Source: a virus
Lineage: Duplodnaviria; Caudoviricetes
IMG/VR virus record: IMGVR_UViG_3300037195_000370
Span: 1 to 59,022 of that record
Reading direction: 5' to 3' (one strand)
DNA: 59,022 nt
Position numbers and translations under genes: made by a program
Shown here: positions 18,042 through 49,251 of the stretch, in pieces
How positions within the stretch are numbered: the first letter of the stretch is position 1
Layout of the letters: every line of letters starts with the position of its first letter
The notes under the pieces: model-generated
What the model saw: only the letters and a program-made list of their open reading frames with translations
Database searches by the model: none
What the model was told of the DNA's origin: nothing

Positions 18042-18047
18042 AAGAAG

Positions 18048-19183: not shown

Positions 19184-19212
19184 ACCATAGGGTGATGCAA
19201 GAAAGATTGCAA
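19184..19212 (-). promoter_or_regulatory. sigma70-like promoter for the capsid gene
   Basis: TTGCAA-N17-TATGGT; the -10 lies in the hairpin GCATCACC-CTAT-GGTGATGC. Confidence 0.5.
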
Positions 19213-19336
19213 CAGGGTTTTTTGTGGGAGTGCGCCCCGGCGAAAGGTGGGGTTTTCACCGGGGCGCGGGGCTTGCGGCGGGCTACCATACCAGCGCCAC
19301 AATACCTTGTAACGCAAAGAAAAAGCGTTTGCAAGT

Positions 19337-20173
19337 CTATTTGTTCGGTTCGGGAGGTCTTGTTGCTCCAACGAAAGAACCAACGGATTTTGCAGCTTCT
19401 TGAGCTTTCGACATTCCGTTCTGCTTGATATATTCGCCTTGTTTGGTGATAGACCAGCCGTTTTTCGACCACGGGTTGTCTTCAGAGTCGCCTGTTCCCT
19501 TGCTGCCTCCAGCGCCACCACCTTGCGATTGAGGCCACCAGTGAGGACGCAGCTTCTGCATCTCTTTCATGAATTGGCGAATATCTGCACCCGGAGTCAC
19601 GCCATTCGCATCCGCTTTGACAATAAACTCACCAGTGGTCTCATCACGTTCAAGATAAAGACCAGCGACAAGCTCGACATCAGCGATTGCAGTCGGCAGA
19701 ACCTTCATTTCAGTAGCCACAGAACGAATAGCGTCATTACGATCGCGAGTTACGAGCGTATTCTTCAGTTTTTCGTTCTCAGACTTGAGTTCTTCCAAAT
19801 TGGAGGTTGTTTCTTTGAGCTGACGTTCAAGAGGAGCAGTTTTCTGACCGAGACGCTGCTCTACAAGCTTTTGAATCGCAGATTCATCAAGCTTTCCCTC
19901 AGCGGCAGCTTCCAATTCGCCAATTCGATCAAGCTTCGCCTGGATTTCAGCAGGATCTTCACCCAAAGCCTTCCAAGGCTTCAGGGCTTCGCGAGCAGCA
20001 GAGTGATTTTCACGCTCTTTTCGCAATGCCTCCTGCACATTCAAGACGTCTTGAGGAGTCTTGATTCCAGAGATTCCTGTTAGAACTGCTTTCCCATCTT
20101 TTTCGCTATAAAGTGAACGAAATTCCTCAGGAACAGCATCCATGCTGTCATAATTGATTTCGAGCGGATCCAT
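19337..20173 (-). CDS. Capsid scaffolding protein
   Basis: Coiled coil; RPHWWPQSQGGGAGG...NPW C-terminus; between portal and capsid genes. Confidence 0.82.
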   Translation of the reverse strand: MDPLEINYDSMDAVPEEFRSLYSEKDGKAVLTGISGIKTPQDVLNVQEALRKERENHSAAREALKPWKALGEDPAEIQAKLDRIGELEAAAEGKLDESAIQKLVEQRLGQKTAPLERQLKETTSNLEELKSENEKLKNTLVTRDRNDAIRSVATEMKVLPTAIADVELVAGLYLERDETTGEFIVKADANGVTPGADIRQFMKEMQKLRPHWWPQSQGGGAGGSKGTGDSEDNPWSKNGWSITKQGEYIKQNGMSKAQEAAKSVGSFVGATRPPEPNK

Positions 20174-20191
20174 GTCCGTTCTATCTCCTTT

Positions 20192-21718
20192 TTATTGGGC
20201 GTCACGCCCGCTTGGGTTTGTGGTTTGACCCGGAACGTTGTTTTCACCATCTGGATCGTTCGGATCATTAGGCTGGAGAGCCGCACGGTCTCCATCCTTC
20301 TTCTTAGCGAAGACGAAATCTTCGTTCTCCGCTTCTTTTTCTGCTTCAGCGATCTCTTCCTCAAACGTCTTCGTCGTCATACGACGTTTCCGAGAGAGGT
20401 CGTGCATCGATTTGGCAGAAATCGGCCAGCCGAGATTTCTCGCAGTAGCGATCTCGACCATAGTTTGTCCCGTGAGTGGCATTTCGCCGAATTCTTTGTT
20501 CGGAATAACACTGACTTCGCTTGGATCTTCATCCATCCATTCAGCGCAAATCTTCAAAACTTGTTCTAGACCAGCAGCACCAGTATCGGCAATCGTATTC
20601 AAATCTGCGGTCCGAGCCGCCATGCGAATTCGCAAGGAGTCACCAGACTCTCGTTCTCTGCTAACAGAATCAAGAGTCTGGGCTCCCATGCTTCCTGCTC
20701 GCATTTCCAGATTCTCTAGTGCCTGTCGTTGCTCAGAAAGACCAGCGCTCGTCACACCTACATATTTCGCATCACCACCTTGCGGTAGATCAATACGAGC
20801 GCCAGCGCCTACTCGAACCTCGTCTGTTTCGTCCCAACCGCCGCCGATTGTTACGAAAGTATCTTGGCCCTGCATGAAAAGATTCTGGCGATAGTCTGCT
20901 TCGGATCGATAGATCGCCATGCACATATTGCCCAAATCGAGTAGAGGAGGATCGTCAACATCAGGAGTGATATCGCAAGAATTGATGAAGACGAATGGAA
21001 TCTTGTTCAAAGTCCGACCACGCCAAGTCGGTGCAATCAGCTTAGAAGGATCAAAATTAGTCTCGTCGAATACACCTTGCTGATAAAGACCAGAAGTTTC
21101 ATTATCGAGAATATCGCCCATCACCAGAACGCGATACTTCTCTTCTGCAGTCCAAGAAAAGTCGGAATTTCGTTCGTATTCGCTCTCATTGATGACTACC
21201 AGATTGAGCCTTTGGGGAACAATCTGCTCAACTCGCCCATCATCCCAATTGATGATCCTCTCTGGCAAATATGTCGCCAAATACGGAATGTCTTCTCCGG
21301 GTTCAGGATTCGTCGGAAGATCAGCCATCACACCGACTCGTCCAGTCAGTAACTGTTCCTTGTTAATTTTCTGCAGAACGACTTTTAGAGGCTCCCCCAT
21401 GCGACTTGTGATCTTTTCCATCGCCTTTGGAAGCTTGATTTCAGGCGGCTGGGAGTGCATCATGCCCAAAGCCTGCTGAATCGCCTCTCGAGTGAAGTTC
21501 GGGAACCTCGCTCGCATTTTATAGGCCATATAGGCTCGATATCCAAGACTTTCAACGCTATTCAGACCACCATCAGCGATTTGAGAGCTAGTCATCGGCA
21601 AATAAACCGTGTTCTTGCTCTTGACTTGCCGCTCACCCTTATACGCATCACGCATAAGAGTCCAATCTGGCTTCGCCTGAGATGCTTCTGGGTGAATTGA
21701 TGAGAGTATTGTGGGCAT
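20192..21718 (-). CDS. Portal protein (DUF4055 family)
   Basis: 508 aa after TerL; VKSKNTVYLP, IPFVFIN and PPLLDL motifs. Confidence 0.88.
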   Translation of the reverse strand: MPTILSSIHPEASQAKPDWTLMRDAYKGERQVKSKNTVYLPMTSSQIADGGLNSVESLGYRAYMAYKMRARFPNFTREAIQQALGMMHSQPPEIKLPKAMEKITSRMGEPLKVVLQKINKEQLLTGRVGVMADLPTNPEPGEDIPYLATYLPERIINWDDGRVEQIVPQRLNLVVINESEYERNSDFSWTAEEKYRVLVMGDILDNETSGLYQQGVFDETNFDPSKLIAPTWRGRTLNKIPFVFINSCDITPDVDDPPLLDLGNMCMAIYRSEADYRQNLFMQGQDTFVTIGGGWDETDEVRVGAGARIDLPQGGDAKYVGVTSAGLSEQRQALENLEMRAGSMGAQTLDSVSRERESGDSLRIRMAARTADLNTIADTGAAGLEQVLKICAEWMDEDPSEVSVIPNKEFGEMPLTGQTMVEIATARNLGWPISAKSMHDLSRKRRMTTKTFEEEIAEAEKEAENEDFVFAKKKDGDRAALQPNDPNDPDGENNVPGQTTNPSGRDAQ

Positions 21719-21756
21719 AATTCAGAACCTAGCTCATGTCTATAATCTGTGGCAAG

Positions 21757-23289
21757 TCAAAAATGACCAGTCACGGCTCCAGATGACGCCGGAGCTTGAA
21801 CCCAACGGACCAGATAGCGAGTTTCGTCTGCAATATGGTCTTCGGCGTCACTATTTACGTCGTCCATATTCTTCTCGTCTCGAGGAAGCACTGGAACTGT
21901 CTCAAAGAACCACTTACACGACTCACAAACGAACAATCCGGGCCTCTCGCGAGGATAAAGAAGAGTCTCTCCATTGACGACTTTTTTATTCGGATGAGCA
22001 TTTTTCATTCTTTGACGCATCTGATTCCATCCAGTCGCCCTAGAACCCGGTCTTTTGTCTGCTGGCATCCACTTGATTCCAGGATAGCGAAAACCGTCGT
22101 CTAAACGAATCTTCACTTTCATGTCAGTCGCAATACAATTGCCATTTTCAGCCGCAAAAATCTGTGAATCTGCTACTCCAGTCTTCACGCGACACCAATT
22201 ATCACCCAAGCGCCTCCATCCCCACTCTAATTCACGCTTGACGATTCCTTCGGCAATTTCAACCGCGAGTAAATCCAAACCTTCGTTTGGCTTTCCTGTG
22301 CATCCATACCATTCCTTGACTCTGAACACATCTCCGCGAACAGTCGATTTCCAACTCCCGTCGGGGAGCTGGAAGTCACATCCATCAGAGATAGCCCACC
22401 ATCCAACAGAGAAAGGCTTGCTCGCGCCCCAGTCAAAAGATCTAACTATTTTCCACGATTCAGGGATTTCAAAGTCTGGAACCACATTATACTGTGGATC
22501 CCAAACATCGTCAAACATGCCTCCGGAGACGATATCCCAAGAACCTTCCAGCCAAGCCTTCTTCTCCGCTTCATTTCGCGCCGCAGCGGCGATCTTCTGC
22601 TTATAATCCGGATCAGCTTCGAGCAGAGCCTTGTTCTCATCAATATGGCTCATGATCGACAAACGAGGAGGTTCTTTCATCCCATTTTCATCAACGAGAT
22701 CCTTTTGAACCACCATGTTCAACAAATGAGGCTTGAATCTAAATTTCACCCAATTGTGCCCAGGACCATATGGGTTCGTTGTCGACCTGACCATGCGCGG
22801 CATTCCCTTCTGGGAACTCCGACAGCACGACATCATCCTCTTATATCCCTCTTCAGTCGACCAGTTGCAAAGCTCTTCCCAGCCGATCCACGGATACTCG
22901 TGTCCGTGATAATTCCAATAGTCGTCAGGTTTTTGAAACTGGCGAAGCAGAAGCTGCTCCCCCGTCGGCCAAGTCCACACATGCTCCGAATGATTGAATT
23001 TCGCATCCGGCCAAATCTGCGGGAACCATTTCTTCGTCTTCGTGATGACGTCCGTTAGCTGCTTATACGTTTGACGAAAGAGAATGCCTTTCCAGGCAGC
23101 GCCGAAACCCTTTCCAACGTGCATCCCAAAAGACATGAGCAGGCAATCAGTCTTGCCTCCTCCTCGGGTGCCGTGGAATAATACCTCAAAGATAGGCGTG
23201 GATGAAAGGAAGGCCTCTTGCGAGCCTTTCATCGGCCTCCAAATTACATTACTGGGAAATTTTGTATTCATTACAAAGACAGCATTCAA
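21757..23289 (-). CDS. terL: Terminase large subunit
   Basis: Walker A GTRGGGKT, WIGWEEL, TTNPYGPGH, RSFDWG and EDHIADETRY nuclease motif; start may be 23271. Confidence 0.95.
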   Translation of the reverse strand: MNAVFVMNTKFPSNVIWRPMKGSQEAFLSSTPIFEVLFHGTRGGGKTDCLLMSFGMHVGKGFGAAWKGILFRQTYKQLTDVITKTKKWFPQIWPDAKFNHSEHVWTWPTGEQLLLRQFQKPDDYWNYHGHEYPWIGWEELCNWSTEEGYKRMMSCCRSSQKGMPRMVRSTTNPYGPGHNWVKFRFKPHLLNMVVQKDLVDENGMKEPPRLSIMSHIDENKALLEADPDYKQKIAAAARNEAEKKAWLEGSWDIVSGGMFDDVWDPQYNVVPDFEIPESWKIVRSFDWGASKPFSVGWWAISDGCDFQLPDGSWKSTVRGDVFRVKEWYGCTGKPNEGLDLLAVEIAEGIVKRELEWGWRRLGDNWCRVKTGVADSQIFAAENGNCIATDMKVKIRLDDGFRYPGIKWMPADKRPGSRATGWNQMRQRMKNAHPNKKVVNGETLLYPRERPGLFVCESCKWFFETVPVLPRDEKNMDDVNSDAEDHIADETRYLVRWVQAPASSGAVTGHF

Positions 23290-23476
23290 ACTCGGGGGAA
23301 TCTTCGTGAATCGCCATGTAATCCCAATCAGGGCACAAGTGAGCCTTTTTCTTACCCTGCTTATGATAATGCTTGAGAAGAACTTCTTCGTGATCTAAGT
23401 TTTCTGACCAGTTCACGATATGTTCCTTCATATTGACACCTATAGCGAGAAGTTCTTTATGACTATCATGTGGCAC
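23249..23476 (-). CDS. Hypothetical small Cys/His protein
   Basis: HLCPDWD...ECCLC; start is probably 23431 (MKEH). Confidence 0.6.
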   Translation of the reverse strand: MPHDSHKELLAIGVNMKEHIVNWSENLDHEEVLLKHYHKQGKKKAHLCPDWDYMAIHEDSPEFECCLCNEYKISQ

Positions 23477-23594
23477 ATTATCATACGACGATATGCAATA
23501 AAAGCATCACATGTTGTGATCCTAATAAGTCCAGTTTTCTTTTCTATTTTGGTCCAGGTTGATTGTTAGATGGGGTTGGTCGAGCCCCGGCCTG

Positions 23595-23630
23595 CCGCCC
23601 CCAGACGGCCTTTGCCGTGCTTGGGGGCGG
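23595..23630 (-). terminator. GC-rich hairpin closing the TC/GA-free operon
   Basis: CCGCCCCCA...ACGGC-CTTT-GCCGT...TGGGGGCGG, just past the peptide stop; no clear U tail. Confidence 0.45.
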
Positions 23631-23640
23631 GTGTAGTGGC

Positions 23641-23745
23641 CTAGTGCAGCGTGGCTAGCGCGGCCACGGTAGCAACTACCTTGGGCCACGCCATAAGCGC
23701 GGCGGTGGCAACGGCGGCAATTGGCAAAAGCGTATGCATGTGCAT
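23641..23745 (-). CDS. 34-aa hydrophobic peptide
   Basis: MHMHTLLPIAAVATAALMAWPKVVATVAALATLH; has the same CAACACAAGGGGTTT leader/SD as the upstream gene. Confidence 0.6.
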   Translation of the reverse strand: MHMHTLLPIAAVATAALMAWPKVVATVAALATLH

Positions 23746-23806
23746 TGGGCAAACCCCTTGTGTTGGTGGCGGTGGCGCGCGCCGTGTAGCGCGCGCCGTG
23801 GCGGTG

Positions 23807-24175
23807 TTAGCTGCCCTGCACGGGCACAAGGTAGGTTTGCGTAACGGGCCAGCGGGCGTGGGCCATGCAATTGCCGTTGGGCTTTTGGGCGGTGCCAAAG
23901 CCCGCGCTGGGCGCGCGCCCGCCGCTTTGCACCCATGCGTTAAGGCCGCTGGCAAGCGCGGTGGCGTATTGCTGCACGGTAAACCCGCCCTTGTGTTGGG
24001 CGTTAAGTTGGGCGGCAACTTTGTAAAGGTAGCAACGTATGCTATTGCCGCTTTTGTGCTTGGCGGGCCAAGTGGGCGCAAGCTGGTAGCGCGTGGCGGT
24101 GGCCTTTACGGGCGCGGGCGCAGCGGCCTTGGCCTTGGCTTTGGTGTTGGTGTTGGCCTTGGTGTTGGTAGCCAT
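23807..24175 (-). CDS. 122-aa basic protein without Asp/Glu, putative immediate-early factor
   Basis: MATNTKANT...PVQGS; AAGGGG SD; directly downstream of a promoter. Confidence 0.8.
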   Translation of the reverse strand: MATNTKANTNTKAKAKAAAPAPVKATATRYQLAPTWPAKHKSGNSIRCYLYKVAAQLNAQHKGGFTVQQYATALASGLNAWVQSGGRAPSAGFGTAQKPNGNCMAHARWPVTQTYLVPVQGS

Positions 24176-24230
24176 TTTTAAACCCCTTGTGTTGTGTTGG
24201 TGGCGGGCACCATTGCCCGGCCATGTGCTT

Positions 24231-24259
24231 AATGTAGCACCTGGCATGGGGCAAAACAA
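24231..24259 (-). promoter_or_regulatory. sigma70 promoter of the TC/GA-free operon
   Basis: TTGTTT-N17-TACATT with extended -10 TG. Confidence 0.65.
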
Positions 24260-24310
24260 GGGCCAAAGTTGGGCATTTTTGGGGCAAAAATGTGGCGAAA
24301 ATGTGGCGAG

Positions 24311-24420
24311 CGGACCGGAGCGGACCGGAGCGGAGCGGAAAATGAAGAAGAAGATCGGATAGACTCACTCGGTCAAAATCGCTCACTCGGTCAATCGGAC
24401 TCGGTCACTCGGTCAAAATC
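24311..24420 (+). repeat. CGGA(CC)GGAG tandem and (CT)CACTCGGTCA repeats
   Basis: Copies at 24364, 24382, 24399 (partial) and 24405. Confidence 0.85.
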
Positions 24421-24566
24421 TGTCTTCGTTTTCTTCCGCTTGTCGCTCATCAAATGTGGAAAATGAAGATGAAGAAGATTCGTTCGGAGAAGAAAGAAGA
24501 CGAACACACACAGGCTGTCTCGAAAATGAAGATGAAGAAGAAGATTCGTTCTAGTAAGTCAAGGCC

Positions 24567-24767
24567 CTAGAGGACCTTGACCAGCTTGGCATTTCCGAGA
24601 GGACCATCGAGAGAGGAGATACCCTCGAAGAAGTTCTTCTGCTGAAGTCTCTCAACCTCGTTCCTGTGGCGAGGAGGGAGGAATCTGCAGAGCTGACTGA
24701 AGGAAACATCGACGACTTCGATGTGACCATCGTGATACTTGATTCTGACGCGGTAGAGTTCGGACAT
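24567..24767 (-). CDS. Hypothetical early protein
   Basis: GGAGG SD and its own promoter cassette. Confidence 0.75.
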   Translation of the reverse strand: MSELYRVRIKYHDGHIEVVDVSFSQLCRFLPPRHRNEVERLQQKNFFEGISSLDGPLGNAKLVKVL

Positions 24768-24829
24768 GGTAGCCTCCTTGGGTTGCCCTATGCTTGCAAG
24801 GTAACAAGCTGCGATTTAGAATGCAACTC
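24765..24829 (-). promoter_or_regulatory. Promoter-RBS cassette, copy 1
   Basis: TTGCAT-N17-TACCTT ... GGAGGCTACCATG; near-identical to 25325-25393. Confidence 0.75.
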
Positions 24830-24900
24830 TTATTTATCACTGGTTAGACGGAAGTCTTCTTCCAGGTCTTCATTATCCTCATCTTTATCTTCATCCTCGG

Positions 24901-24957
24901 ATTATCTCAATCGGTCATTATCTCAATCGGTCATCCTCAGATTATCTCAATCGGTCA
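24901..24957 (+). repeat. ATTATCTCAATCGGTC x3
   Basis: Units start at 24901, 24917 and 24941; variant of CTCACTCGGTCA. Confidence 0.9.
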
Positions 24958-24989
24958 ACGAAGAAGAAGAAGATGATATCCAGCCCAAG

Positions 24990-25020
24990 GAGAAAGGGCG
25001 AGCCTATCCGAGACTCGCCC
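24990..25020 (-). terminator. Rho-independent terminator
   Basis: GGGCGAGTCT-CGGAT-AGGCTCGCCC-TTTCT after the 25027 ORF. Confidence 0.65.
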
Positions 25021-25026
25021 CCTATC

Positions 25027-25200
25027 TCAGCGAACGTAGATGCTGGGAATCTCAGCACCGAGATTGTTGAACGGCGACTTATTGCGCCGGAATCCAGCGC
25101 CTTGGGCCACGCGAGCCGGACAGACTGTGATCTCGCCACCGTTTTCCAGATACTCGGCAACAACCTTGTTGATGAATTCACGAAGTTCAGACTTGGACAT
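25027..25200 (-). CDS. Hypothetical early protein
   Basis: Start MSKSELREF with GGAGG SD; EYLENGGEITVCP motif common in small phage proteins. Confidence 0.75.
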   Translation of the reverse strand: MSKSELREFINKVVAEYLENGGEITVCPARVAQGAGFRRNKSPFNNLGAEIPSIYVR

Positions 25201-25324
25201 GGTAGCCTCCTTACATGCTGTGAATCCTGAGTATCCAGCGGTAAAAACCAAACCGCCTCTCAGGGCTCACCTTCTTTCCTTCAAGAAGTATAAGCGCCCG
25301 GAGTTGTGGATCTCGCAGCTTTGA

Positions 25325-25393
25325 CATGGTAGCCTCCTTGGGTTGCCCCCCCCATGCTTGCAAGGTAACAAGCTGCGATTTAGATTACAACTC
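25325..25393 (-). promoter_or_regulatory. Promoter-RBS cassette, copy 2
   Basis: TTGTAA-N17-TACCTT ... GGAGGCTACCATG, leading only to a 15-aa ORF. Confidence 0.75.
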
Positions 25394-25448
25394 CTTTTTA
25401 TCTCCATCTTTATCCGGGGAAGAAGAAGATGAAGAATTATCCCCCCAC

Positions 25449-25476
25449 AAAAGGATCGGCGCCGCAGCGCCAATCC
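25449..25476 (-). terminator. Rho-independent terminator
   Basis: GGATTGGCGC-TGCG-GCGCCGATCC-TTTT. Confidence 0.7.
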
Positions 25477-25486
25477 CCATTATCTA

Positions 25487-25831
25487 TTAGGCCAAGCCCA
25501 TTGCCCACCGCATGACGTTGTAGGTAAAGTCTTCAAGCGGGAAAGTGTAGAGGGGCACACCAAGCTCTTCAACATTGTAGCCCTGCTCTTCACAATCCCA
25601 CATATTCACCGTTCTTCCGTCTTCGGCAAGGCTGTAGTAAACACCGACGCCGCTGTTAAACGGATCGGCGCCCCACGCCTGATAAATAAGACGGTTGCCA
25701 GTATCGGGCACAATTTGCGGCGCGCTGGGCGGCCCCTCTTCGGTGGGCACCAGCAAGCAAAGGTTTGCAGCCGCAACGAAGAGTTGCATGGCCTGCTTGC
25801 CGTAAATCGTGTTAATAATGCGTTTATCCAT
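25487..25831 (-). CDS. Hypothetical early protein
   Basis: Start MDKRII (AAGGG SD); upstream TTTTCT-N17-TAGGCT promoter and a downstream terminator. Confidence 0.75.
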   Translation of the reverse strand: MDKRIINTIYGKQAMQLFVAAANLCLLVPTEEGPPSAPQIVPDTGNRLIYQAWGADPFNSGVGVYYSLAEDGRTVNMWDCEEQGYNVEELGVPLYTFPLEDFTYNVMRWAMGLA

Positions 25832-25992
25832 GGCGGTAGCCCTTTCTGTGTTGCCCCACATATACAGCCTAACCCAAGGAAGTTTAGAAGAAAACTCCTA
25901 TTTCTCTCTCTTTTTCTTCGCGTCTTCGTTTTCTTCAATAGAGATGAAGAAGAAGATGAAGATGAGGAAGATCCGACCGACGATCGGACAAA

Positions 25993-26042
25993 CTCACTCG
26001 GTCAATCTTCATCTTCTTCGGACGGACTCACTCGGTCAATCT
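25993..26042 (+). repeat. CTCACTCGGTCAATCT x2
   Basis: Copies at 25993 and 26027, overlapping the TerS 3' end. Confidence 0.85.
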
Positions 26043-26658
26043 GGAGTTGATCCTCGCTCGGCGTTACGTCCTTCATCCTCTTGAACTTAGTTTCCCAATC
26101 CTCGATTGAATCAACTTCGGCTGGCGCGAGAAGAACGCCGCCTGAATGCTTGTGAGAGATCTCCTGTTTTTCTCGGTATCCCTGATCGTGCTTCTTCAGT
26201 TCTAGCTCGATGAGTCGGATTGGGTAGATTGTCTCTTCGGAGACGAGGTTGCCGTTGCGATCATAGCTCTTCTTAATCGTCCCATTGAACACGAGATCTT
26301 GGTGATGCCCAATGAGCTTATCCTTGTATTCCTCCTCAGCGATAAGCAGTGCCTCGGCGAAATCCTCGTCTTTATCGATGTGCGCGCGAACGCACTGAGT
26401 CGATACTCCAGCGGCGGCTGCCGCTTCTCCCATGCGACCCCATTTCCGGTAGACTTCTAGAAAGATCCCCTTTTCTTTATCTCCGAACTTTATCCGGGAC
26501 ATTTTTATCCGACGTCGCCACTCTTTGAGTTCGTCATCCCACTCTTCGACCACCACAGGCTTGGATCCTCTGGTGAGCAACGAGCGCGGACGAGTCCGGA
26601 CATTGTTGCGATCGTAAGTATCTTCGTTGTAGTCGTTGGTCATCATTCTCACCTGCAT
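26002..26658 (-). CDS. Terminase small subunit
   Basis: HTH-like GRMGEAAAAAGVS...DEDFAEAL; C-terminal YREKQEISHKHSGGVL...EDWE; start is likely 26646. Confidence 0.7.
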   Translation of the reverse strand: MQVRMMTNDYNEDTYDRNNVRTRPRSLLTRGSKPVVVEEWDDELKEWRRRIKMSRIKFGDKEKGIFLEVYRKWGRMGEAAAAAGVSTQCVRAHIDKDEDFAEALLIAEEEYKDKLIGHHQDLVFNGTIKKSYDRNGNLVSEETIYPIRLIELELKKHDQGYREKQEISHKHSGGVLLAPAEVDSIEDWETKFKRMKDVTPSEDQLQIDRVSPSEEDED

Positions 26659-26706
26659 TCATGCGAAAAGAAGAGAAAGAAGATCTCCCGCTTTAGACTA
26701 TCCCAC

Positions 26707-26937
26707 ATGAGCCCAAAGAGGACAACCCCTGTTATCTGCCGATTCAGCCTCTGCTATTAGAGTATGGTAAGTCCGCCATCCTATCCTAGACCCATCCCCT
26801 TGTTTTTATTATATTCTTTATACTAATCTATAGATAATTAAGTAATAAAAGGAAAGGCCATACTGGAAGCTGGTAGCAGTAAAACGGAGGAACCCTAGCA
26901 ACTTAAAAACGCGGTGGTAGTTCCTCTTTGGGCTCAT
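26707..26937. promoter_or_regulatory. Divergent control region: 16-bp inverted repeat around an AT-rich core
   Basis: ATGAGCCCAAAGAGGA (26707-22) and TCCTCTTTGGGCTCAT (26922-37); AT-rich at about 26800-26850. Confidence 0.7.
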
Positions 26938-27031
26938 TGTATATAGAAGTGACAAACAGCCCCTTGTCAAACAACGTCTAATTGATATCATATATGGGCC
27001 ACTGGCCACACGTCTAAAAGGAACTATCCTC

Positions 27032-27703
27032 ATGAATAACCCGAAGCTGATCAACCCCTACCAGCCTGAAAGACCACGGCATGACCCGGAGACCGGAGAA
27101 GTTCTGCTGTATCGCACTCGGCCCAAGAGAGGGAAATACAACTTTCATATCCACACCTACGGAAATCAGCTCGCTATGCTCAGCCTCTACCGCGCTGTCT
27201 GTCGTGGAGAGGTTCCGCAGCAGGTTGCGATCAACGATCTATACCAGTGGCTGACTGATGGTGAATTCGGGAAGCGTAATCTCGGCACTGTCGTCGTCAA
27301 TGCTGTTATCTACGAACCTCGCAAGCTCTACAACAATAGGTCTGTCGGCAAGCCCACATCATCCTACGTCTTCCGCAACATGCTGGATCTCCAGTATGGA
27401 TTGGAGTGGATGATCTGCACTTGGTTCCGGAAATACATAAACAAGACCGCGCCTGCTGACGAGCAGATAAACAGCAGAGGCGACATGGCAGAGGAACTGC
27501 GTATGCTCGCAGAGTCGACTGATGACGAGTTCCGAGAGGTTTACGTCTCCGACCTCATGGAGTTTATGATGGAACCCGTGGATTGGCACGAGCAGGCCAA
27601 ACTGAATGGATGGACATGGGAAGAAGTTTTACCTGAAGAAGCTGCGCCAAAGAAAAAGCCCAGGACCCCGCCAAGGGATCTGAGCCTTTTGAACAGCGCG
27701 TGA
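27032..27703 (+). CDS. Hypothetical protein (only convincing plus-strand gene)
   Basis: 223 aa, AAGGA SD, upstream TTGTCA-N16-TATCAT; no competing minus-strand gene. Confidence 0.8.
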   Translation: MNNPKLINPYQPERPRHDPETGEVLLYRTRPKRGKYNFHIHTYGNQLAMLSLYRAVCRGEVPQQVAINDLYQWLTDGEFGKRNLGTVVVNAVIYEPRKLYNNRSVGKPTSSYVFRNMLDLQYGLEWMICTWFRKYINKTAPADEQINSRGDMAEELRMLAESTDDEFREVYVSDLMEFMMEPVDWHEQAKLNGWTWEEVLPEEAAPKKKPRTPPRDLSLLNSA

Positions 27704-27731
27704 GTCATGATACGGAAGGAGTATGCCTCCC

Positions 27732-28241
27732 TCAGATCATCTCCATCAGCAGGCCAACTTGCAGTCGGCAGTCTTCCAGGGCGTTGTGGGTGGGAGCAGT
27801 CCTGGGTTGCGTCCATCCTTTCCGCTTCGCCATCCAGCGCACGGTGCGGAAGTCGAGCTCTTCGCGGTATGACCACGGCACTTCTTCTCCGACGGAAGCG
27901 AAATGACCCTCGAGGATAACGAGATCGAAGGACGGGGAGTTGGCCCACGTCTTTTCTACCGATTGTCCTTCGTAAAGAAGGATTAAGTCACCCACTGAAT
28001 CGGCTAAAGTCACTCGGTCATGAACAACAGTAGGATCATACTGTTGTTCGCGCCACCAGTCCAGCGTCCCAGGCTGCGGACAACGCCCAGTCCGCCACAT
28101 CACATCCATGATATCAACGTGAGCGTGCATGTGAGAGATCTCTTCACCGTCCTCAGGATTGAAAAGCACACAGGCGATTTCAAATAGTGGAGCTTGCGTG
28201 CCGACACCGAGAGTCTCGATGTCAATCATTGCGTGTATCAT
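27732..28241 (-). CDS. 3'-5' exonuclease (DEDDh, DUF5051-like)
   Basis: MIDIETLG, WANSPSFD and HNALEDC motifs. Confidence 0.88.
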   Translation of the reverse strand: MIHAMIDIETLGVGTQAPLFEIACVLFNPEDGEEISHMHAHVDIMDVMWRTGRCPQPGTLDWWREQQYDPTVVHDRVTLADSVGDLILLYEGQSVEKTWANSPSFDLVILEGHFASVGEEVPWSYREELDFRTVRWMAKRKGWTQPRTAPTHNALEDCRLQVGLLMEMI

Positions 28242-28434
28242 TCATGTCCCTCCAAAGTTGCTTGGTCAGCTTCCCGAGTTCTATCGCCATCAGGATGAAG
28301 AACGACTCAATACCGCCGACCAGGAAGATGTTGATCCATGTGATTGGTAGGTCTTTTATCACTAAAAGAACTACCAACGGCCCTGCCACACAGAACGTGA
28401 TGGATCCAGTCAGAGCTATCAGAAACTTGTCCAC
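28222..28434 (-). CDS. Hypothetical membrane protein
   Basis: Two hydrophobic segments; overlaps its neighbours. Confidence 0.55.
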   Translation of the reverse strand: MDKFLIALTGSITFCVAGPLVVLLVIKDLPITWINIFLVGGIESFFILMAIELGKLTKQLWRDMNDTRND

Positions 28435-45253: not shown

Positions 45254-45840
45254 GATACATCTCCCAGATCCGGCATAAAGGACCAGTCATGATTGGAGCT
45301 TTCCCAATAAGTATCCAAGATCTTAGGGTGAAACTTCTCACCGTTTTTCTTGATATACTTATGAATACGATCAAGCATGACTTCAAGATTACGATTTCCA
45401 ATATGGATTTGATCTCGGCAGAATAGCGCAAGCTCTAAGATATCGAGACCGTGAAGCCACTTTTTCTCAATTTCGTTGAGAGCAGAACCGTGATCATAAT
45501 TGATGGTATCAATCAAAATGTCACTCTCAAGATCTGATAAACTCTCACTGTCAATTAAATTCAGCCATTTGGCAGGAGCGGGAATATCACCAGTCAGCCT
45601 TTCTGGAATATCATGCTCAATGATAGCCCAAACGAGAAACAGGCTCGCTTCTGGCCAAAGGACTCTCAGCATTGAAAGCATGTTGAACTTGTGAATAGCC
45701 AAGTTGTATTCACCAACGATAGGAATAGTGTGACAGCGACGAACTGCACCTGCCTCCCTCATGAATTTGATTTTCTCAATCGAACTCACAGCATGTTCAT
45801 AAGTCTTCATTTGCTTCTCCTGATCAGCCATTCCACACAA
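45250..45840 (-). CDS. HD-domain 5'-deoxynucleotidase (YfbR-like)
   Basis: VRRCHT, AIH, HDIPERLTGDIPAPAK and LDILE. Confidence 0.85.
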   Translation of the reverse strand: MCGMADQEKQMKTYEHAVSSIEKIKFMREAGAVRRCHTIPIVGEYNLAIHKFNMLSMLRVLWPEASLFLVWAIIEHDIPERLTGDIPAPAKWLNLIDSESLSDLESDILIDTINYDHGSALNEIEKKWLHGLDILELALFCRDQIHIGNRNLEVMLDRIHKYIKKNGEKFHPKILDTYWESSNHDWSFMPDLGDVS

Positions 45841-46826
45841 GCTTTCCTCCAGTCTTCAGCAGCGATCTTCTCTGCCAACTTCAGCGCATTTTCTGCATGA
45901 TTAGGGTTCTCGCGATCTTTCCATGCCATCCAAGATTGAAACATTGGTGAAGCAACTTTCTTGAAGAACACATCTTTGAAGCCCATTACTGGACCAACTT
46001 CCATGAACATTTCTAGATCTTGGAACCATTCGTCAATAGGTGAGTTCACAACTTTAAAAGGTCTTACGTTTCCAAGAGAATAGTCATCGAACCCAGGACT
46101 GATTTTGAGTAGATCGGAATGCTTCTTCAGTATGTTGTGATAGGCATGGAAATTCGTGCTTACCTGCCAATATCTCCCGATTGGAACTCCGACCCAAGCC
46201 GCCATCACCTCTTGGAGCATGGAAAAGTGAACTGCATTCGCACCATAGGCACCCCAGATCATATCGTTTGATCTGTTGAATACCGTCATGTCCAGAAAGT
46301 TGTATGGACTGATGCGAAATGTCGCGATCAAGTTGCAGGGGAAGTCTTTTCCTTCCATTCCGAGATCTGCAGAAGTATCCCACATTTGCAACACGACTCG
46401 TCTGTCGTCAGGGTTCATTTTGAGAAGTGAAGCAATCGTAGTGAGCTGATCAACGACGACATCCTTATATTGATAATCTCCTATGGCTGGAGAAAACCAG
46501 TTTCTCCAACGATAACCGTAGGCCCCATGAAACGTGACGCCGTCATCGCTGTAGTTCATTATGTTCGTGGAAAACTGGCTGATCCACTCTACATCTCGTC
46601 TGCCAGATAGCATCCACAAACTTTCCATGAAATGGAAGTATGGATTAGCATCCCTTTCTGGGAAGAACACCACCCTTTCTTCGGGTTCTTGATAAACAGT
46701 TGTCACAGGTTCTGGGAATACCCGAACCATACCATTTCGTGAGTCACGGTCCACACCTTCTTCTTGCAGAGCATTAAGCCCAAGAAGGAGAGCTTCGTTC
46801 ACATTGCGCGCAGATATGACTTTCAT
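45807..46826 (-). CDS. dUMP hydroxymethylase (thymidylate synthase superfamily)
   Basis: RDANPYFH, DFPCN catalytic Cys and RSNDMIWGAYGANAVHFS; Asn at the specificity position indicates dUMP. Confidence 0.88.
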   Translation of the reverse strand: MKVISARNVNEALLLGLNALQEEGVDRDSRNGMVRVFPEPVTTVYQEPEERVVFFPERDANPYFHFMESLWMLSGRRDVEWISQFSTNIMNYSDDGVTFHGAYGYRWRNWFSPAIGDYQYKDVVVDQLTTIASLLKMNPDDRRVVLQMWDTSADLGMEGKDFPCNLIATFRISPYNFLDMTVFNRSNDMIWGAYGANAVHFSMLQEVMAAWVGVPIGRYWQVSTNFHAYHNILKKHSDLLKISPGFDDYSLGNVRPFKVVNSPIDEWFQDLEMFMEVGPVMGFKDVFFKKVASPMFQSWMAWKDRENPNHAENALKLAEKIAAEDWRKACVEWLIRRSK

Positions 46827-48106
46827 ACCAGAATTCCATAGTGATTGAACATTAGATCGTCGAACTTTTCATAGAGATTGGGATCAACAGCACCAGTCTC
46901 TGTTTGGACGTCGCCATTAGCGAGATTGATAACCCTGTTCGCAACTGCTTTCCGGTCGAACTGGATCAAAATATCACGGGCTGCGTCCTGGAAATTACGA
47001 GCCTGCATTGCAGACATATGGCTCGTCTCGAGAATGATGTCAGCGTAGTCCTGTGCATCAAGGGCATCATCGAGAGGAACGTAGTGCTCGTCCGGCTTGA
47101 ACAGGGTAGTCCCCATGCCTCGCTTGTGTGCAACAGGGATAGCGCCTCGGATCATTGCATCAACCGCCACTCGATTCCAGTGACCACCGATCTTACTGTA
47201 TTTCTTGGACCAGCTTGGGTCAACAAGAACGCGAGCCATTTGCAGCCATTCGTCCACGTCTTGGGTCGGCCAGTAGTCGTGATGAGTCATTCCGTTCTCT
47301 AAGGCAACTTCCCAGATCCTGCGAGTATGAAATGGCTTTTCTGGATCATCGTGGAAATAGGCAGGCTTGCACTTTTCCTCACTCGTCATGTATTGATATT
47401 CAATACCCTTACCAGCGATCTCGCGAAGTTCACCCGGCATCCTTGGTGGCATGTAGGCGATTGACCGAACAAGCTCGTGAACATGCTTCCAAGCCTTGAA
47501 AGTCTGCATGTTCACAAAGCCAGAATACTTATCTTCCCATGAAGTAAATTCGCGAATAGGATTGAACTGAGGGTTCACAACCAATGCTCGCGGAATGGGA
47601 AAGATTACAGCAGAATTGAGCGCACATTCATGAACACATGCAAGCCCAGAGAGATGTTCAGCAACATGATAGAGATGCAGAGCATTGCTCTTAGCATTGC
47701 CATCGTGAATGAAAGCAACCTGCTTGACTCTGGGCTCAAGATCATAAAGCTCGGGCCATTTGTCATTTCCGAGATGCTGTCTGTTTTTCGGTGGAACCGG
47801 AACCGTCCAGATGACAATATCGTAATGATTCAAGATATGCTTGGCATTCGCCAAACCAGCAGAAGTCTTATAGGAGAGACGCGCATGTTTGGGAAAGTTC
47901 CAGCCCTTTCCCTGAGCGAACGGAATTCCGCTTGGTCCTCGTTCGAAATTGCCAGATCGCTCCTGAGCTTGGGCATTATCGGCATAGACAAGTTCATAGA
48001 GATGAGCCTCGTGACCAAGATCAAGGAAGCCGCCAATCAACTGTTCAGTATGATTGATGATACCACCAAGATCCATGCACGAATGCAGCGCAACAGCTAT
48101 TTTCAT
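46823..48106 (-). CDS. GT-B (GT4-like) glycosyltransferase, putative DNA-modifying
   Basis: N-terminal LGGIINHTEQL...LGHEA; C-terminal VLVDPS...VDAMIRGAIPV; start MKIAVAL; overlaps the hydroxymethylase start. Confidence 0.8.
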   Translation of the reverse strand: MKIAVALHSCMDLGGIINHTEQLIGGFLDLGHEAHLYELVYADNAQAQERSGNFERGPSGIPFAQGKGWNFPKHARLSYKTSAGLANAKHILNHYDIVIWTVPVPPKNRQHLGNDKWPELYDLEPRVKQVAFIHDGNAKSNALHLYHVAEHLSGLACVHECALNSAVIFPIPRALVVNPQFNPIREFTSWEDKYSGFVNMQTFKAWKHVHELVRSIAYMPPRMPGELREIAGKGIEYQYMTSEEKCKPAYFHDDPEKPFHTRRIWEVALENGMTHHDYWPTQDVDEWLQMARVLVDPSWSKKYSKIGGHWNRVAVDAMIRGAIPVAHKRGMGTTLFKPDEHYVPLDDALDAQDYADIILETSHMSAMQARNFQDAARDILIQFDRKAVANRVINLANGDVQTETGAVDPNLYEKFDDLMFNHYGILV

Positions 48107-48140
48107 GATGAGCTCCAGGGTAAGCAGTATGCCCCACCAT

Positions 48141-48169
48141 AGCGGCAGGACATACAAAAGACAATTATC
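48141..48169 (-). promoter_or_regulatory. sigma70-like promoter for the GT-hydroxymethylase operon
   Basis: TTGTCT-N17-TATGGT; coordinates approximate. Confidence 0.55.
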
Positions 48170-48424
48170 GTTTTGTCTTGTGTGCTCCTTTTATTATCGA
48201 GTAAACGATAATTATCGGAAGGAGCGGACCGATCATTAGAAAAGAGAGAAGAGCGACTAGCCAGTGCATCTTGGGCTTCAAACCGGCTCTAACTTGACGA
48301 TTATACCATTCTAGAAAGAACGCGAAAACCGCAAGCCAGTAGATCGTTATCCAGAAAACCCATGAATTAAATTCGAACACGATACTTGCTCCTCGGTTTT
48401 CCTTGCCCAAGACGAACACGTTCA
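48165..48424 (-). CDS. Small membrane protein (start uncertain)
   Basis: Two TM helices (WVFWITIYWLAVFAFF; LVALLSFLMIGPLLPIIIVY); no in-frame ATG next to the upstream stop. Confidence 0.45.
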
Positions 48425-49251
48425 TATTTGTCGAACTCACAAAGACCGAATTGAATGTCTGTGGGTGACAAAGTGAAATCGTGTTCAAAGAAAGCTTCTT
48501 GCATCTTTGTCATCTCCATGATTAGATCGAAAGCTTTCTGATTCTTCACAGGCTTGGCTTCGTCGTCTCCGAGAATACGGGCTGCTCCTCGCAATGCTCC
48601 TGGACCGATAGGGGTCCACTCGTTCCAGTCCTTTGGCAAGGATTTATTGTCGTAATACTTGTATGACCAGAAACCAGTGTAGGTCGTATCCAAAAGGATC
48701 TCTTTGGTCATGAATCCCGTGCCGCCAAAGCCTTGGATTTTCATCATCCGCTTGGCGACCTGTTCCCATGACTGAGTTGTCTGTGCCAGCTTTACGATCT
48801 CCGGCGTCGCTTGCCACAAAGCCTTGAGAAAGTGATGGACCACCACTTCTTGTTTCGGAGCAGAGATACCTTGATTTGTGATGACATACGCGCCCGTGAA
48901 TACTCTTTCACGATTTTCTAGCCTTTCAGCAGCTACTTCTTCTATGTAATTGAAACAGAAGTTATCATAGTCATGCCACCCAATAGCATTTGCGAATTCC
49001 CAGGTTCCGAAATACCTGAAAGTCGCACAATTCATGAGTATGGAACGACGGTCATCATGATATTTTGGCGTGTAGAATAGTTCCCTCAGCTTCATGCTTG
49101 TTCGATCGTGTTCTCGACGAACATTGGTGAATTTATAGGTCTGGAGAATAGGATCTTCAGTCCACGGAAAAGAATCGCCCGCCTCCTTTCGAAGGCGGAC
49201 GTTCTCACGTTCGTTCAGGTAATCGAAGAACGCATTCACGCGATTAAGCAT
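48367..49251 (-). CDS. aGPT-Pplase1 family protein (alpha-glutamyl/putrescinyl thymine pyrophosphorylase clade 1)
   Basis: ERENVR...PWTEDPILQTYKFTNVRREHDR, FTGAY, GPGALRG and LCEFDKYER. Confidence 0.88.
   Translation of the reverse strand: MLNRVNAFFDYLNERENVRLRKEAGDSFPWTEDPILQTYKFTNVRREHDRTSMKLRELFYTPKYHDDRRSILMNCATFRYFGTWEFANAIGWHDYDNFCFNYIEEVAAERLENRERVFTGAYVITNQGISAPKQEVVVHHFLKALWQATPEIVKLAQTTQSWEQVAKRMMKIQGFGGTGFMTKEILLDTTYTGFWSYKYYDNKSLPKDWNEWTPIGPGALRGAARILGDDEAKPVKNQKAFDLIMEMTKMQEAFFEHDFTLSPTDIQFGLCEFDKYERVRLGQGKPRSKYRVRI

What the first reader, a model, noticed from the sequence alone, without database searches (positions are those of the whole stretch)
23605..24297. 693-bp island with zero GA/TC dinucleotides holding a whole transcription unit
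Seen: no GA or TC for 693 bp in a TC/GA-rich genome. At a neutral rate of 1/8 per position the chance is about 1e-40. The island covers a sigma70 promoter, two genes with a shared leader and most of a closing hairpin. Inference: this unit is kept free of the bulky base modification so that unaided host RNA polymerase can transcribe it first, and its products then permit expression of the modified genome. This would be a sequence-encoded unmodified entry cassette paired with the glycosylation cluster. I am not aware of a description of this.
Basis: partly seen in the sequence, partly recalled or inferred. Interest (0 to 1): 0.93.

Follow-up and report, generated by a model that had tools for sequence, protein, structure and literature searches.

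The report
Phage gene cassette purged of TC/GA
An uncultured marine phage that appears to put a sugar on its thymines keeps one small gene unit, control regions included, free of the DNA step TC/GA, at the cost of every aspartate and glutamate in its protein, most likely so that this stretch alone stays unmarked and readable.

Summary
Bases 23605-24297 contain no GA or TC; the next longest gap is 67 nt. The probability is 2e-67 under the genome's Markov model.

The island is one minus-strand cassette between terS and terL. It holds a leader, a 122-aa basic protein without Asp or Glu, a 34-aa hydrophobic peptide and a closing hairpin.

The purge is conserved. In 24 related viral loci the homologous gene carries 90 GA/TC against 1569 expected.

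Every GT444-positive record that is at least 82% complete (12 of 12) has such a depleted cassette. GT444 is a GT-B glycosyltransferase whose best structural match is T4 alpha-glucosyltransferase. None of 7 records lacking it has the cassette.

Published work places phage thymidine hypermodification at TG/TC steps. It also shows that bulky or phosphorylated 5-hmU templates shut down bacterial RNA polymerase.

Best reading (0.55): the transcription unit is purged of the phage's own TC-specific modification sites. Metatranscriptome contigs cover the gene.

Not shown: the modification itself, "transcribed first", and any licensing role of the products.

This scan noted the same phenomenon on other phage DNA. 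My three searches for such an exempt region found no published description.

The parts
23605..24297 (.). GA/TC-free island of 693 nt, 65% G+C against 47% for the genome
23807..24175 (-). Gene for P0001: 122 aa, no Asp or Glu, disordered Ala/Lys/Pro/Thr-rich N-terminus (residues 1-24), then a compact strand-3 helices-strand core. No Pfam or PHROG family.
23641..23745 (-). Gene for P0002: 34-aa hydrophobic peptide. A similar 33-34-aa peptide gene follows the main gene in relatives L011, L016, L014 and L018.
24231..24259 (-). Weak promoter-like site: TTGTTT (24259..24254), 17 nt, TACATT (24236..24231). It matches 7 of 12 consensus positions and the scan tool did not call it. One exact RNA contig ends at 24224, about 7 nt downstream of the second hexamer.
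24176..24224 (-). 5' leader with a small hairpin (not better than shuffles) and a ribosome-binding site. The 15-nt leader repeat is also found before P0002 (plus strand 24180-24194 and 23751-23765).
23772..23800 (-). G+C hairpin between the two genes (-23.4 kcal/mol, z -3.4). Relatives have a hairpin at the same place.
23589..23641 (-). Closing hairpin (-40.5 kcal/mol, z -3.6) with no U-tract. The island ends inside its 3' arm. Relatives end on a like CCCCGCCCC...GGGGCGGGG hairpin.
24298..24560 (.). First of the GA/TC-saturated repeat spacers that abut the island (GAAGAAGA-type runs and CTCACTCGGTCA 15-mers)
26002..26658 (-). Terminase small subunit. The cassette lies between it and terL in 8 of 8 genomes mapped.
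21757..23289 (-). Terminase large subunit
46823..48157 (-). GT444: GT-B glycosyltransferase. Best structural match is T4 alpha-glucosyltransferase bound to DNA. Its presence runs with the purged cassette.
48367..49251 (-). PF18723 ('HMUDK_hel') protein without a P-loop. GenBank relatives are labelled aGPT-Pplase clade 1.
45807..46826 (-). Thymidylate-synthase-family enzyme with Asn where the CMP hydroxymethylase in the PDB alignment has Asp. Candidate dUMP hydroxymethylase.

Best explanation
The island is a complete small transcription unit: upstream control region, leader, a 122-aa basic protein gene, a 34-aa membrane-peptide gene and a closing hairpin. Selection has purged it of the step 5'-TC-3' on both strands.

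Inferred mechanism:
1. The phage replaces T by 5-hydroxymethyl-dU, using a TS-family enzyme with the uracil-type Asn.
2. After replication it decorates those bases that are followed by C. The likely agents are a T4-AGT-like GT-B glycosyltransferase and a PF18723/aGPT-Pplase1-like protein.
3. With no TC on either strand, the cassette can never receive the bulky adduct and stays plain 5-hmU DNA.
4. Host RNA polymerase can therefore bind and read it whatever the modification state of the rest of the genome, including on the fully modified DNA that enters the cell.

What is shown: the ban, its DNA-level nature, its conservation, its match to one gene unit, its co-occurrence with GT444, and the presence of the gene in RNA libraries.

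What is inferred: the chemistry, the TC specificity, the effect on RNA polymerase in this system, and the role of the two products.
For: (1) DNA-level selection.
- The ban spans non-coding flanks.
- Given the protein sequence and the genome's codon usage, the chance that all P0001 codons are internally free is 10^-8.4.
- Junction-safe C-ending codons replace the genome's preferred T-ending ones (GCC 15, GCT 2; genome GCT 455, GCC 162). This also explains the island's high G+C.

(2) The protein pays for it.
- Asp and Glu make up 6.6% and 6.9% of the genome's proteins but 0 in P0001.
- 21 of 25 aligned family members have no Asp or Glu.
- At the one column where three Asp/Glu-bearing members have Glu, the free ones have Gln (16) or Ala (5).

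(3) Conservation.
- 26 HMM hits in 24 related loci carry 90 GA/TC against 1569 expected; 9 have none and 18 have 3 or fewer.
- Complete islands of 447-721 nt occur in relatives.

(4) The extent equals a gene unit. In most relatives the free zone starts at or up to about 40 nt upstream of a conserved promoter-like region and ends in the terminal hairpin.

(5) Link to the modification genes.
- GT444-positive records at least 82% complete: 11 of 12 carry the family gene. The twelfth (G010) has a GA/TC-depleted zone at the same place, and its close relatives L041 and L042 hold a depleted cassette with another cargo gene.
- GT444-negative records: 0 of 7.
- No other dinucleotide class gives such an island in any of 16 genomes.

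(6) GT444 model (pLDDT 80, pTM 0.83): the top PDB match is T4 alpha-glucosyltransferase with DNA (E 8.5e-12).

(7) Literature, passages read.
- Thymidine hypermodifications sit at TG/TC steps (PMC6449724; PMC13458397 section 45).
- A phage T-dioxygenase prefers NTC (PMC13229309).
[quoted passage not shown] Phosphorylating them with 5-HMUDK drops the yield to about 10% of that, and bulky caging groups give negligible transcription (PMC6457204).
- Bulkier groups block promoter contacts (PMC11550810, introduction).

(8) RNA. Exact contigs from 3 metatranscriptome runs (2 samples, 1 study) cover 23722-24224, 23730-24164, 23810-23963 and 24040-24209. No exact contig lies on the 11 kb of structural genes laid beside them; only short low-complexity pieces lie at 16879-16914, plus traces of depth in 16.0-19.3 kb.
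Against: - No modification has been measured, and the TC specificity is inferred from the sequence ban alone.
- No P-loop 5-hmU DNA kinase is present, so the pathway differs from the characterised ones.
- Other genes of the phage, including ones found in the same RNA runs (25.0-31.7 kb), are GA/TC-rich. Modification therefore cannot be an absolute block to transcription.
- Relative G008 seems to carry another DNA glycosyltransferase (TAGT-like, E 5.8e-6, just under the Pfam cut-off) plus a sugar epimerase, and has no island.
- The promoter is a weak consensus match that the scan tool did not call, and the hairpin has no U-tract.
- In L162 the 5' leader and promoter region do contain TC.
- The co-occurrence counts come from related phages and are not independent events.
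- RNA contigs cannot show level, strand or timing.
Confidence: 0.55

Rival explanations
1. Reader or partner model. P0001 is a DNA-binding protein whose job is tied to the modified base: it coats, silences, protects or helps to install it. Its own gene is kept free of TC so that the protein, or the mark, never acts on its own template. This would be escape from feedback rather than a general need of RNA polymerase.
For: The family gene strictly co-occurs with GT444. P0001 is a very basic protein with a disordered Lys/Ala/Pro tail and a compact core. The weak nearest structural neighbours of that core are winged-helix-like (PqqD, MarR and IclR-type, TM below 0.5). Only this unit, not the other early genes, is purged.
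Against: No DNA binding is shown and no structural match is significant. In the G010 group the depleted cassette at the same place carries a different small protein. That points to the slot rather than to this protein.
Confidence: 0.15
2. Recognition-site model. The stretch between terS and terL must stay unmodified because a protein or process other than transcription has to read it. Candidates are packaging initiation (pac), an origin, or a recombination site. The genes inside merely adapted.
For: The cassette lies between terS and terL in 8 of 8 genomes. Contigs often end at or near it. Relatives without the family gene also show GA/TC-free repeat arrays in this interval.
Against: The free zone follows the gene unit's edges and its length (447-1000 nt) tracks the cargo. 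Those other arrays are tandem repeats, for which a long gap is trivial. The distance to terL varies from 0.5 to 6 kb. The iteron-like 15-mers next to the island are packed with TC.
Confidence: 0.12
3. RNA-level model. The messenger must lack GA and UC to escape an endoribonuclease of the host or phage.
For: The free zone covers the transcribed region. In three relaxed homologues the residual sites are biased (sense GA 4, sense TC 28).
Against: Both reverse-complementary dinucleotides are banned at once. The ban continues about 70 nt upstream of the likely RNA start. In four other relaxed homologues there is no bias (19 against 14).
Confidence: 0.04
4. Chance, a foreign origin of the DNA, or avoidance of host restriction sites.
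For: The island has a different G+C content, as acquired morons do.
Against: The probability is 1e-42 or less. The ban persists across diverged homologues in many contigs. The high G+C follows from the junction-safe codon choice. Many common restriction sites without GA/TC (GGCC, GCGC, CGCG) abound in the island.
Confidence: 0.02

Closest known systems
Dinucleotide-context thymidine hypermodification from 5-hmdU (Pseudomonas phage M6, Salmonella ViI, Delftia PhiW-14, Acinetobacter SH-Ab 15599, Pbunaviruses)
   Same: A TS-family enzyme and a PF18723/aGPT-Pplase-type protein sit next to the DNA polymerase and nucleotide genes. Published resistant sites point to TG/TC steps (PMC6449724; PMC13458397 section 45; PMC12191111, passages).
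   Different: There is no P-loop 5-HMUDK here, and no aGPT-Pplase2 among the ORFs scanned. A GT-B glycosyltransferase is present instead. None of the passages I read describes a stretch exempt from the modification. Lee 2018 (PMC5889632) says the motifs were then unknown.
T4 alpha-glucosyltransferase on 5-hmC DNA, and base J (glucosyl-5-hmU) of kinetoplastids
   Same: The GT444 model is closest to T4 AGT-DNA complexes. Base J marks the boundaries of transcription units and promotes termination (PMC4150806, abstract in the search listing).
   Different: Sequence identity to AGT is only 12-14%, and other GT4 enzymes score almost as well. The substrate and the sugar are unknown. T4 is not known to keep a modification-free cassette (recalled).
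Motif avoidance in phage genomes, such as loss of restriction sites in the early-injected region
   Same: A short DNA word is purged by selection because an enzyme acts on it (PMC12455610: title and abstract seen in the search listing).
   Different: Here the word is a dinucleotide, the purge is total and confined to one gene unit, the rest of the genome is rich in the word, and the enzyme avoided is most likely the phage's own.
In vitro switching of bacterial transcription by groups on 5-hmU (Vanikova et al. 2019, PMC6457204)
   Same: It shows the proposed physical effect: 5-hmU DNA is a very good template, while bulky or phosphorylated 5-hmU is a poor one.
   Different: Those were artificial templates with every T replaced. 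No natural genome arrangement that exploits the effect was described in the passages read.
Morons: autonomous gene units between conserved phage genes (recalled concept)
   Same: A small unit with its own control regions and a composition unlike its neighbours, in a variable slot between terS and terL.
   Different: The composition follows from the TC/GA ban. The unit is conserved and co-diverges with its phages rather than being a recent insert.

Membership tests
5-hmdU-derived thymidine hypermodification system (M6 / ViI / PhiW-14 type) | dUMP hydroxymethylase of the thymidylate synthase family | tested here: inconclusive
   PF00303 at 5.6e-23 and phrog_5131 at 1e-121. The enzyme has Asn where the CMP hydroxymethylase aligned has Asp, which fits uracil (the residue rule is recalled). 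Hydroxymethylase versus methylase cannot be told from sequence here.
5-hmdU-derived thymidine hypermodification system (M6 / ViI / PhiW-14 type) | [quoted passage not shown] | tested here: not met
   The PF18723 protein has no Walker A motif. The Walker A motifs found in ORFs of 80 aa or more include TerL and the helicase; the other three are an ORF at 27544-27987, one at 593-832, and a plus-strand ORF across the island. None of these three was scanned against Pfam or PHROGs; I take none for a kinase.
5-hmdU-derived thymidine hypermodification system (M6 / ViI / PhiW-14 type) | aGPT-Pplase-type DNA transferase | tested here: inconclusive
   P0017 matches PF18723 at 5.9e-39. Its tblastn relatives in GenBank phages are labelled aGPT-Pplase clade 1. 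The catalytic clade 2 enzyme was not seen among the 27 window ORFs scanned against Pfam; nine further small ORFs were scanned against PHROGs only.
5-hmdU-derived thymidine hypermodification system (M6 / ViI / PhiW-14 type) | Modified base present at TG/TC steps in virion DNA | not testable with these tools
   No virion DNA or raw signal data. Only the TC/GA ban points to it.
DNA hydroxymethylpyrimidine glycosyltransferase (T4 AGT-like, GT-B fold) | GT-B two-domain fold close to a DNA glucosyltransferase | tested here: met
   AF2 model with pLDDT 80 and pTM 0.83. Foldseek top hit is 1y6f_B (T4 AGT with DNA), E 8.5e-12, TM 0.59/0.65.
DNA hydroxymethylpyrimidine glycosyltransferase (T4 AGT-like, GT-B fold) | Sequence membership in a curated glycosyltransferase family | tested here: inconclusive
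   PF00534 at 22 bits, under the 26.4-bit cut-off. No PDB sequence hit. No relative in 50,697 GenBank phage records.
DNA hydroxymethylpyrimidine glycosyltransferase (T4 AGT-like, GT-B fold) | Transfers a sugar to 5-hmU in DNA | not testable with these tools
   Needs an enzyme assay.
Winged-helix DNA-binding proteins (for P0001) | Significant fold or sequence match to a winged-helix family | tested here: not met
   No Pfam or PHROG hit. The best Foldseek PDB E-value is 2.9. Atlas neighbours (PqqD, MarR, DUF742) have TM 0.35-0.46. This is a lead only.
Moron (autonomous transcription unit in a phage genome) | Own promoter and own terminator flanking the gene(s) | tested here: inconclusive
   The promoter-like site matches 7 of 12 positions and the hairpin has no U-tract. 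The scan tool called neither. An RNA contig end fits the site, and the upstream region is conserved in relatives.

The most novel reading that the evidence does not exclude
The cassette is the one part of the injected, sugar-coated genome that host RNA polymerase can read at once. Its basic product is a reader of the modified thymine that then licenses, or later silences, transcription of the marked DNA. That would make a writer (GT444), mark (glycosyl-5-hmU at TC), reader (P0001) circuit with a sequence-encoded unmarked 'pioneer' gene. It would be a phage counterpart of base J and its binding proteins, and an epigenetic gene switch written into dinucleotide content.
Probability: 0.15. Interest if true: 0.95.

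Novelty: new variant of a known kind. Interest (0 to 1): 0.82.

Why it matters
- It would be the first case where a virus exempts one gene unit from its own genome-wide DNA hypermodification by rewriting the sequence, to the point of removing two amino acids from a protein.
- It reads out the likely sequence context (TC) of an uncharacterised modification enzyme from sequence alone. That gives a cheap way to predict modification motifs in uncultured phages.
- It implies that thymidine hypermodification is not only a shield against nucleases but also constrains, and may be used to programme, transcription.
- It singles out a small orphan protein family and a T4-AGT-like glycosyltransferase, neither found in any cultured phage record searched, as targets for experiments.

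Tried and rejected
**Relatives of P0001**
- The word-based homology search found only the query itself.
- Pattern scans of viral contigs with P0001, P0009 and P0006 found nothing.
- Scans of metagenome contigs with P0009 and P0006 found nothing.
- tblastn of P0009 and P0007 against GenBank phages gave no match.
- The genomic context of the four Asp/Glu-bearing family members therefore could not be examined. That would have been the best independent test.

**The island DNA:** it has no blastn match in GenBank phages.

**Fold of P0001:** nothing significant in the PDB. BFVD returned only an identical entry, A0A516MGD2.

**Complex prediction of GT444 with the P0001 core:** no verdict (score 0.03). 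This is evidence neither way.

**PF18723 presence does not separate island-bearing from island-free genomes:** 12 of 18 records have it, on both sides. I first called this protein a kinase and dropped that.

**Genome-wide GA/TC excess as an imprint of modification: rejected.** Records without modification genes show as much or more.

**G010's depleted zone:** it is partly low-complexity repeat, and the gaps in L036 and L040 are tandem repeats, so I gave them little weight.

**Strand-specific depletion beyond the island edges:** looked for, not seen here.

**Template-strand bias of residual sites:** mixed result.

**RNA runs**
- X11, from a sample whose DNA run holds the phage, gave only short low-complexity pieces.
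- Parts without RNA cover are not counted as evidence of silence beyond the contrast described.

**Literature:** three searches for a modification-free or motif-depleted region in a hypermodified phage found nothing relevant. Chakrapani et al. 2022, on glucosylated 5-hm-pyrimidines and transcription, is not held; I saw only its title in a reference list. Supplementary files were not consulted. The supplementary tables of PMC6449724, and Figure 2 and the supplements of PMC8989533 (metavirome clusters), may bear on whether GT-type clusters like this one were already catalogued.
Full report
**What the window is.** The window is a whole IMG/VR virus record of 59,022 bp, 97% complete by CheckV. Its large terminase is 54-58% identical to those of siphoviruses such as Pseudomonas PaMx74 and PAE1, Bordetella MW2 and Roseobacter RDJL3. 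Nearly all genes lie on the minus strand. The runs that hold its DNA are marine metagenomes.

**The observation.**
- Bases 23605-24297 hold no GA and no TC. The next longest gap is 67 nt, while GA and TC are the most over-represented dinucleotides of the genome.
- The probability is 2e-67 under a first-order Markov model of the window and 4e-42 for independent bases of the island's own composition. Shuffles of the island never fell under 56 occurrences.
- Both words vanish at the same edges, and density jumps back to 24-44 per 200 nt immediately outside.

**Anatomy, minus strand.**
- *Control region.* There is a promoter-like pair, TTGTTT, 17 nt, TACATT, at 24259..24231. It matches 7 of 12 consensus positions and the scan tool did not call it.
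- *Leader.* It runs 24224..24176.
- *First gene.* At 24175..23807 it encodes the 122-aa protein P0001.
- *Intergenic hairpin.* A G+C hairpin follows (-23.4 kcal/mol, z -3.4).
- *Second gene.* The same 15-nt leader repeat precedes a gene for a 34-aa hydrophobic peptide, P0002.
- *Closing hairpin.* It has -40.5 kcal/mol (z -3.6) and no U-tract. The island ends in its 3' arm.
- *Setting.* The unit sits between the small (26002-26658) and large (21757-23289) terminase genes. This interval is otherwise filled with small genes behind repeated promoter/RBS modules and with spacers saturated in GA/TC.

**The ban acts on DNA.**
- It covers non-coding flanks.
- Inside the gene, every amino acid that offers a choice uses only GA/TC-free codons (10^-8.4 given the protein and the genome's codon usage).
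- Junction-safe C-ending codons replace the T-ending ones the genome prefers. This accounts for the island's 65% G+C without invoking foreign DNA.
- P0001 has no Asp or Glu, against 13.5% combined in the genome's proteins.
- An exhaustive phmmer search found 13 relatives. Of 25 aligned family members 21 have no acidic residue. At the one column where three of the four acid-bearing members have Glu, the others have Gln (16) or Ala (5). The family did not start out acid-free; the DNA constraint removed the acids.

**Conservation.**
- I fetched 80 loci around related terminase genes.
- A family HMM found the gene in 19 of them and in 5 further records reached through GT444.
- Over these 24 loci the hits carry 90 GA/TC against 1569 expected. 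Nine have none and 18 have three or fewer.
- Full islands of 447-721 nt occur in L011, L016, L074, L024, L013, L020, L076, L049, L018, L162 and L163.
- Protein identity among these is only about 30-60%, so the ban has been held by selection for a long time.
- In most relatives the free zone starts at, or up to about 40 nt upstream of, a conserved upstream region and ends in a CCCCGCCCC...GGGGCGGGG hairpin. L162 is an exception, with TC in its leader.
- Four relatives also have the small hydrophobic peptide gene.
- In 8 of 8 genomes mapped the order is terS, cassette, terL.
- Of 35 loci that hold the whole terS-terL interval, 14 carry the gene and 21 do not, at similar terminase identity.

**Link to the modification genes.** The window encodes, in one run next to the DNA polymerase:
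- a dCTP-deaminase/dUTPase-like protein and an FkbM methyltransferase;
- an HD hydrolase;
- a thymidylate-synthase-family enzyme;
- a 444-aa protein with a sub-threshold GT1 match (GT444);
- a PF18723 protein, and a ribonucleotide reductase.

Three points about these genes:
- The TS-family enzyme has Asn where the aligned CMP hydroxymethylase has Asp. That fits a uracil substrate (the residue rule is recalled).
- The PF18723 protein has no P-loop. Its GenBank relatives are labelled aGPT-Pplase clade 1, and I identified no kinase candidate. The pathway is therefore not the kinase-plus-transferase route of M6 or ViI (PMC8989533, passages).
- An AlphaFold model of GT444 (pLDDT 80, pTM 0.83) is a GT-B enzyme. 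Its best PDB match is T4 alpha-glucosyltransferase bound to DNA, and GT4-family enzymes follow closely.

Across whole records:
- All 12 GT444-positive records that are at least 82% complete have a GA/TC-depleted cassette.
- Eleven of them carry the P0001 family gene.
- In G010 the depleted zone has no family gene, and its close relatives L041 and L042 hold a different 115-137-aa ORF there (7-9 GA/TC).
- None of 7 GT444-negative records has the gene or any comparable gap.
- No other dinucleotide class gives an island in any of the 16 genomes.
- These phages are kin, so the counts are not independent events.
- G008 shows that the link is to this system rather than to glycosylation as such. In place of GT444 it has a TAGT-like protein and a sugar epimerase, and it has no island.

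**What is known (passages read).**
- Resistant restriction sites in M6, ViI and PhiW-14 point to TG/TC (PMC6449724).
- The dapT base of phage SH-Ab 15599 sits mainly at TG and less at TC (PMC13458397, section 45).
- Pbunaviruses modify T in a TG motif (PMC12191111).
- A phage T-dioxygenase prefers NTC (PMC13229309).
- In 2018 the motifs were 'not yet known' (PMC5889632).
- With E. coli RNA polymerase, 5-hmU templates give 250-350% of normal transcription. Phosphorylation by 5-HMUDK lowers this to about 10% of the 5-hmU level, and bulky caging groups give negligible transcription (PMC6457204). Bulkier groups act by blocking promoter contacts (PMC11550810, introduction).
- A TC-free unit in a 5-hmU genome would thus be a permanently good template among variably poor ones.

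**RNA.**
- Three metatranscriptome runs (two samples, one study) hold exact contigs over the cassette: 23722-24224, 23730-24164, 23810-23963 and 24040-24209.
- They also cover 25018-25306, 25600-25835 and 28195-31676.
- They hold no exact contig over the structural genes 12001-23339 laid beside them; only short low-complexity pieces lie at 16879-16914, plus traces of depth in 16.0-19.3 kb.
- Uniform DNA carry-over would not give this pattern, so the cassette is probably transcribed in nature together with non-structural genes.
- One contig ends at 24224, about 7 nt past the TACATT hexamer.
- Contigs cannot show level, strand or timing, and the runs were found with this very stretch.

**Interpretation.**
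- The best-supported reading is that selection keeps this transcription unit free of the target step of the phage's own thymidine modification (0.55).
- The reason for exempting this unit is open.
Ordinary GA/TC-rich genes are found in the same RNA runs.
- A reader or partner role for P0001 (0.15) would explain the strict co-occurrence with GT444. The different cargo in the G010 group weakens it.
- A packaging or other recognition role for the DNA itself (0.12) fits the constant position between the terminase genes, but not the match to gene-unit edges.
- RNA-level selection (0.04) does not explain the purged upstream region.
- Chance, transfer or restriction avoidance (0.02) are excluded in effect.

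**Earlier notes of this scan.**
- First-reader notes on this genome made me check the P-loop (e1-6283452) and the short GA/TC-free gaps. There are 12 gaps of 40 nt or more outside the island against 1.8 expected, several of them in G+C-rich hairpin elements.
- A word search shows that the scan has met GA/TC-free cassettes with acid-free proteins in at least 34 other phage genomes. These are AI notes and not independent evidence. I verified the phenomenon only in the records listed above.

**Novelty.** Three full-text searches, and the passages I read in the eight modification, transcription and defence papers cited above, gave no description of a region exempt from a phage's own hypermodification. 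Supplements were not consulted.

Noticed in passing
window 24338-26041: The spacers between the small genes of the terS-terL interval are packed with GA/TC. They hold nine GAAGAAGA-type 20-mers and nine copies of a CTCA(C/A)TCGGTCA 15-mer, in three clusters (24364-24418, 24906-24960, 25993-26041). The 15-mers look like iterons or operators. Inverted GAAGAAGATGAAGAT arms lie at 25949-26019.
   Followed up: partly
window 24763-24838 and 25323-25402: A repeated promoter/RBS module (26-nt and 53-nt repeats, 91-100% identical) stands in front of two small genes. It is GA/TC-free from the -10-like hexamer to the start codon (42- and 38-nt gaps).
   Followed up: partly
window 523-583, 16346-16412, 19257-19319, 44683-44772 and others: Outside the island there are 12 GA/TC-free gaps of 40 nt or more, against 1.8 expected (maximum 5 in 100 simulations). 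Several lie in G+C-rich imperfect hairpins that share the loop word TGGTATGGTAG (at 546, 19283 and 44683).
   Followed up: partly
window 48367-49251: Pfam names this protein after a '5-hmdU DNA kinase helical domain' (PF18723). It has no P-loop, and GenBank relatives are labelled aGPT-Pplase clade 1. The two names conflict and no kinase partner is evident in the genome.
   Followed up: yes
L101:4891-6655 (record G008) and L105:11522-13512 (record G009): At the position of GT444, relative G008 has a TAGT-like protein (just under the Pfam cut-off) plus an NAD-dependent sugar epimerase/dehydratase. G009 has a radical-SAM/SPASM enzyme plus an unknown protein. The modification cassette is swapped between otherwise syntenic phages.
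   Followed up: partly
L042:7991-8710, L041:1-740, L044:111-620: The G010 group has a GA/TC-depleted zone of 510-740 nt at the same place (11-15 against 87-121 expected). In L041 and L042 it holds a different 115-137-aa ORF with a hydrophobic tail, flanked by GA/TC-free tandem repeats.
   Followed up: partly
upstream of the family gene in L016, L014, L017, L024, L074, L076, L018: A conserved leader word (GCAAGCAATAACGC and variants) lies about 30-45 nt before the start codon. In the window a small GGGCA/TGCCC hairpin with a CAATGG-type loop takes its place. This may be a translational or RNA-binding operator.
   Followed up: no
window 27544-28751: An exonuclease (phrog_255) matches only the C-terminal part of the profile in ORF 27732-28241. 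Overlapping ORFs in other frames suggest a frameshift, a split gene or a wrong start.
   Followed up: no
window 41634-42083: An HNH endonuclease lies between the FkbM methyltransferase and the DNA polymerase. tblastn found no counterpart in any of the 15 related records, so it is probably a recent homing insert.
   Followed up: partly
window 25018-31676: The metatranscriptome contigs that match this phage exactly all fall in the cassette and in 25.0-31.7 kb; no exact contig falls in the structural genes 12.0-23.3 kb. This pattern fits early-phase or non-productive infection in the sampled cells.
   Followed up: partly
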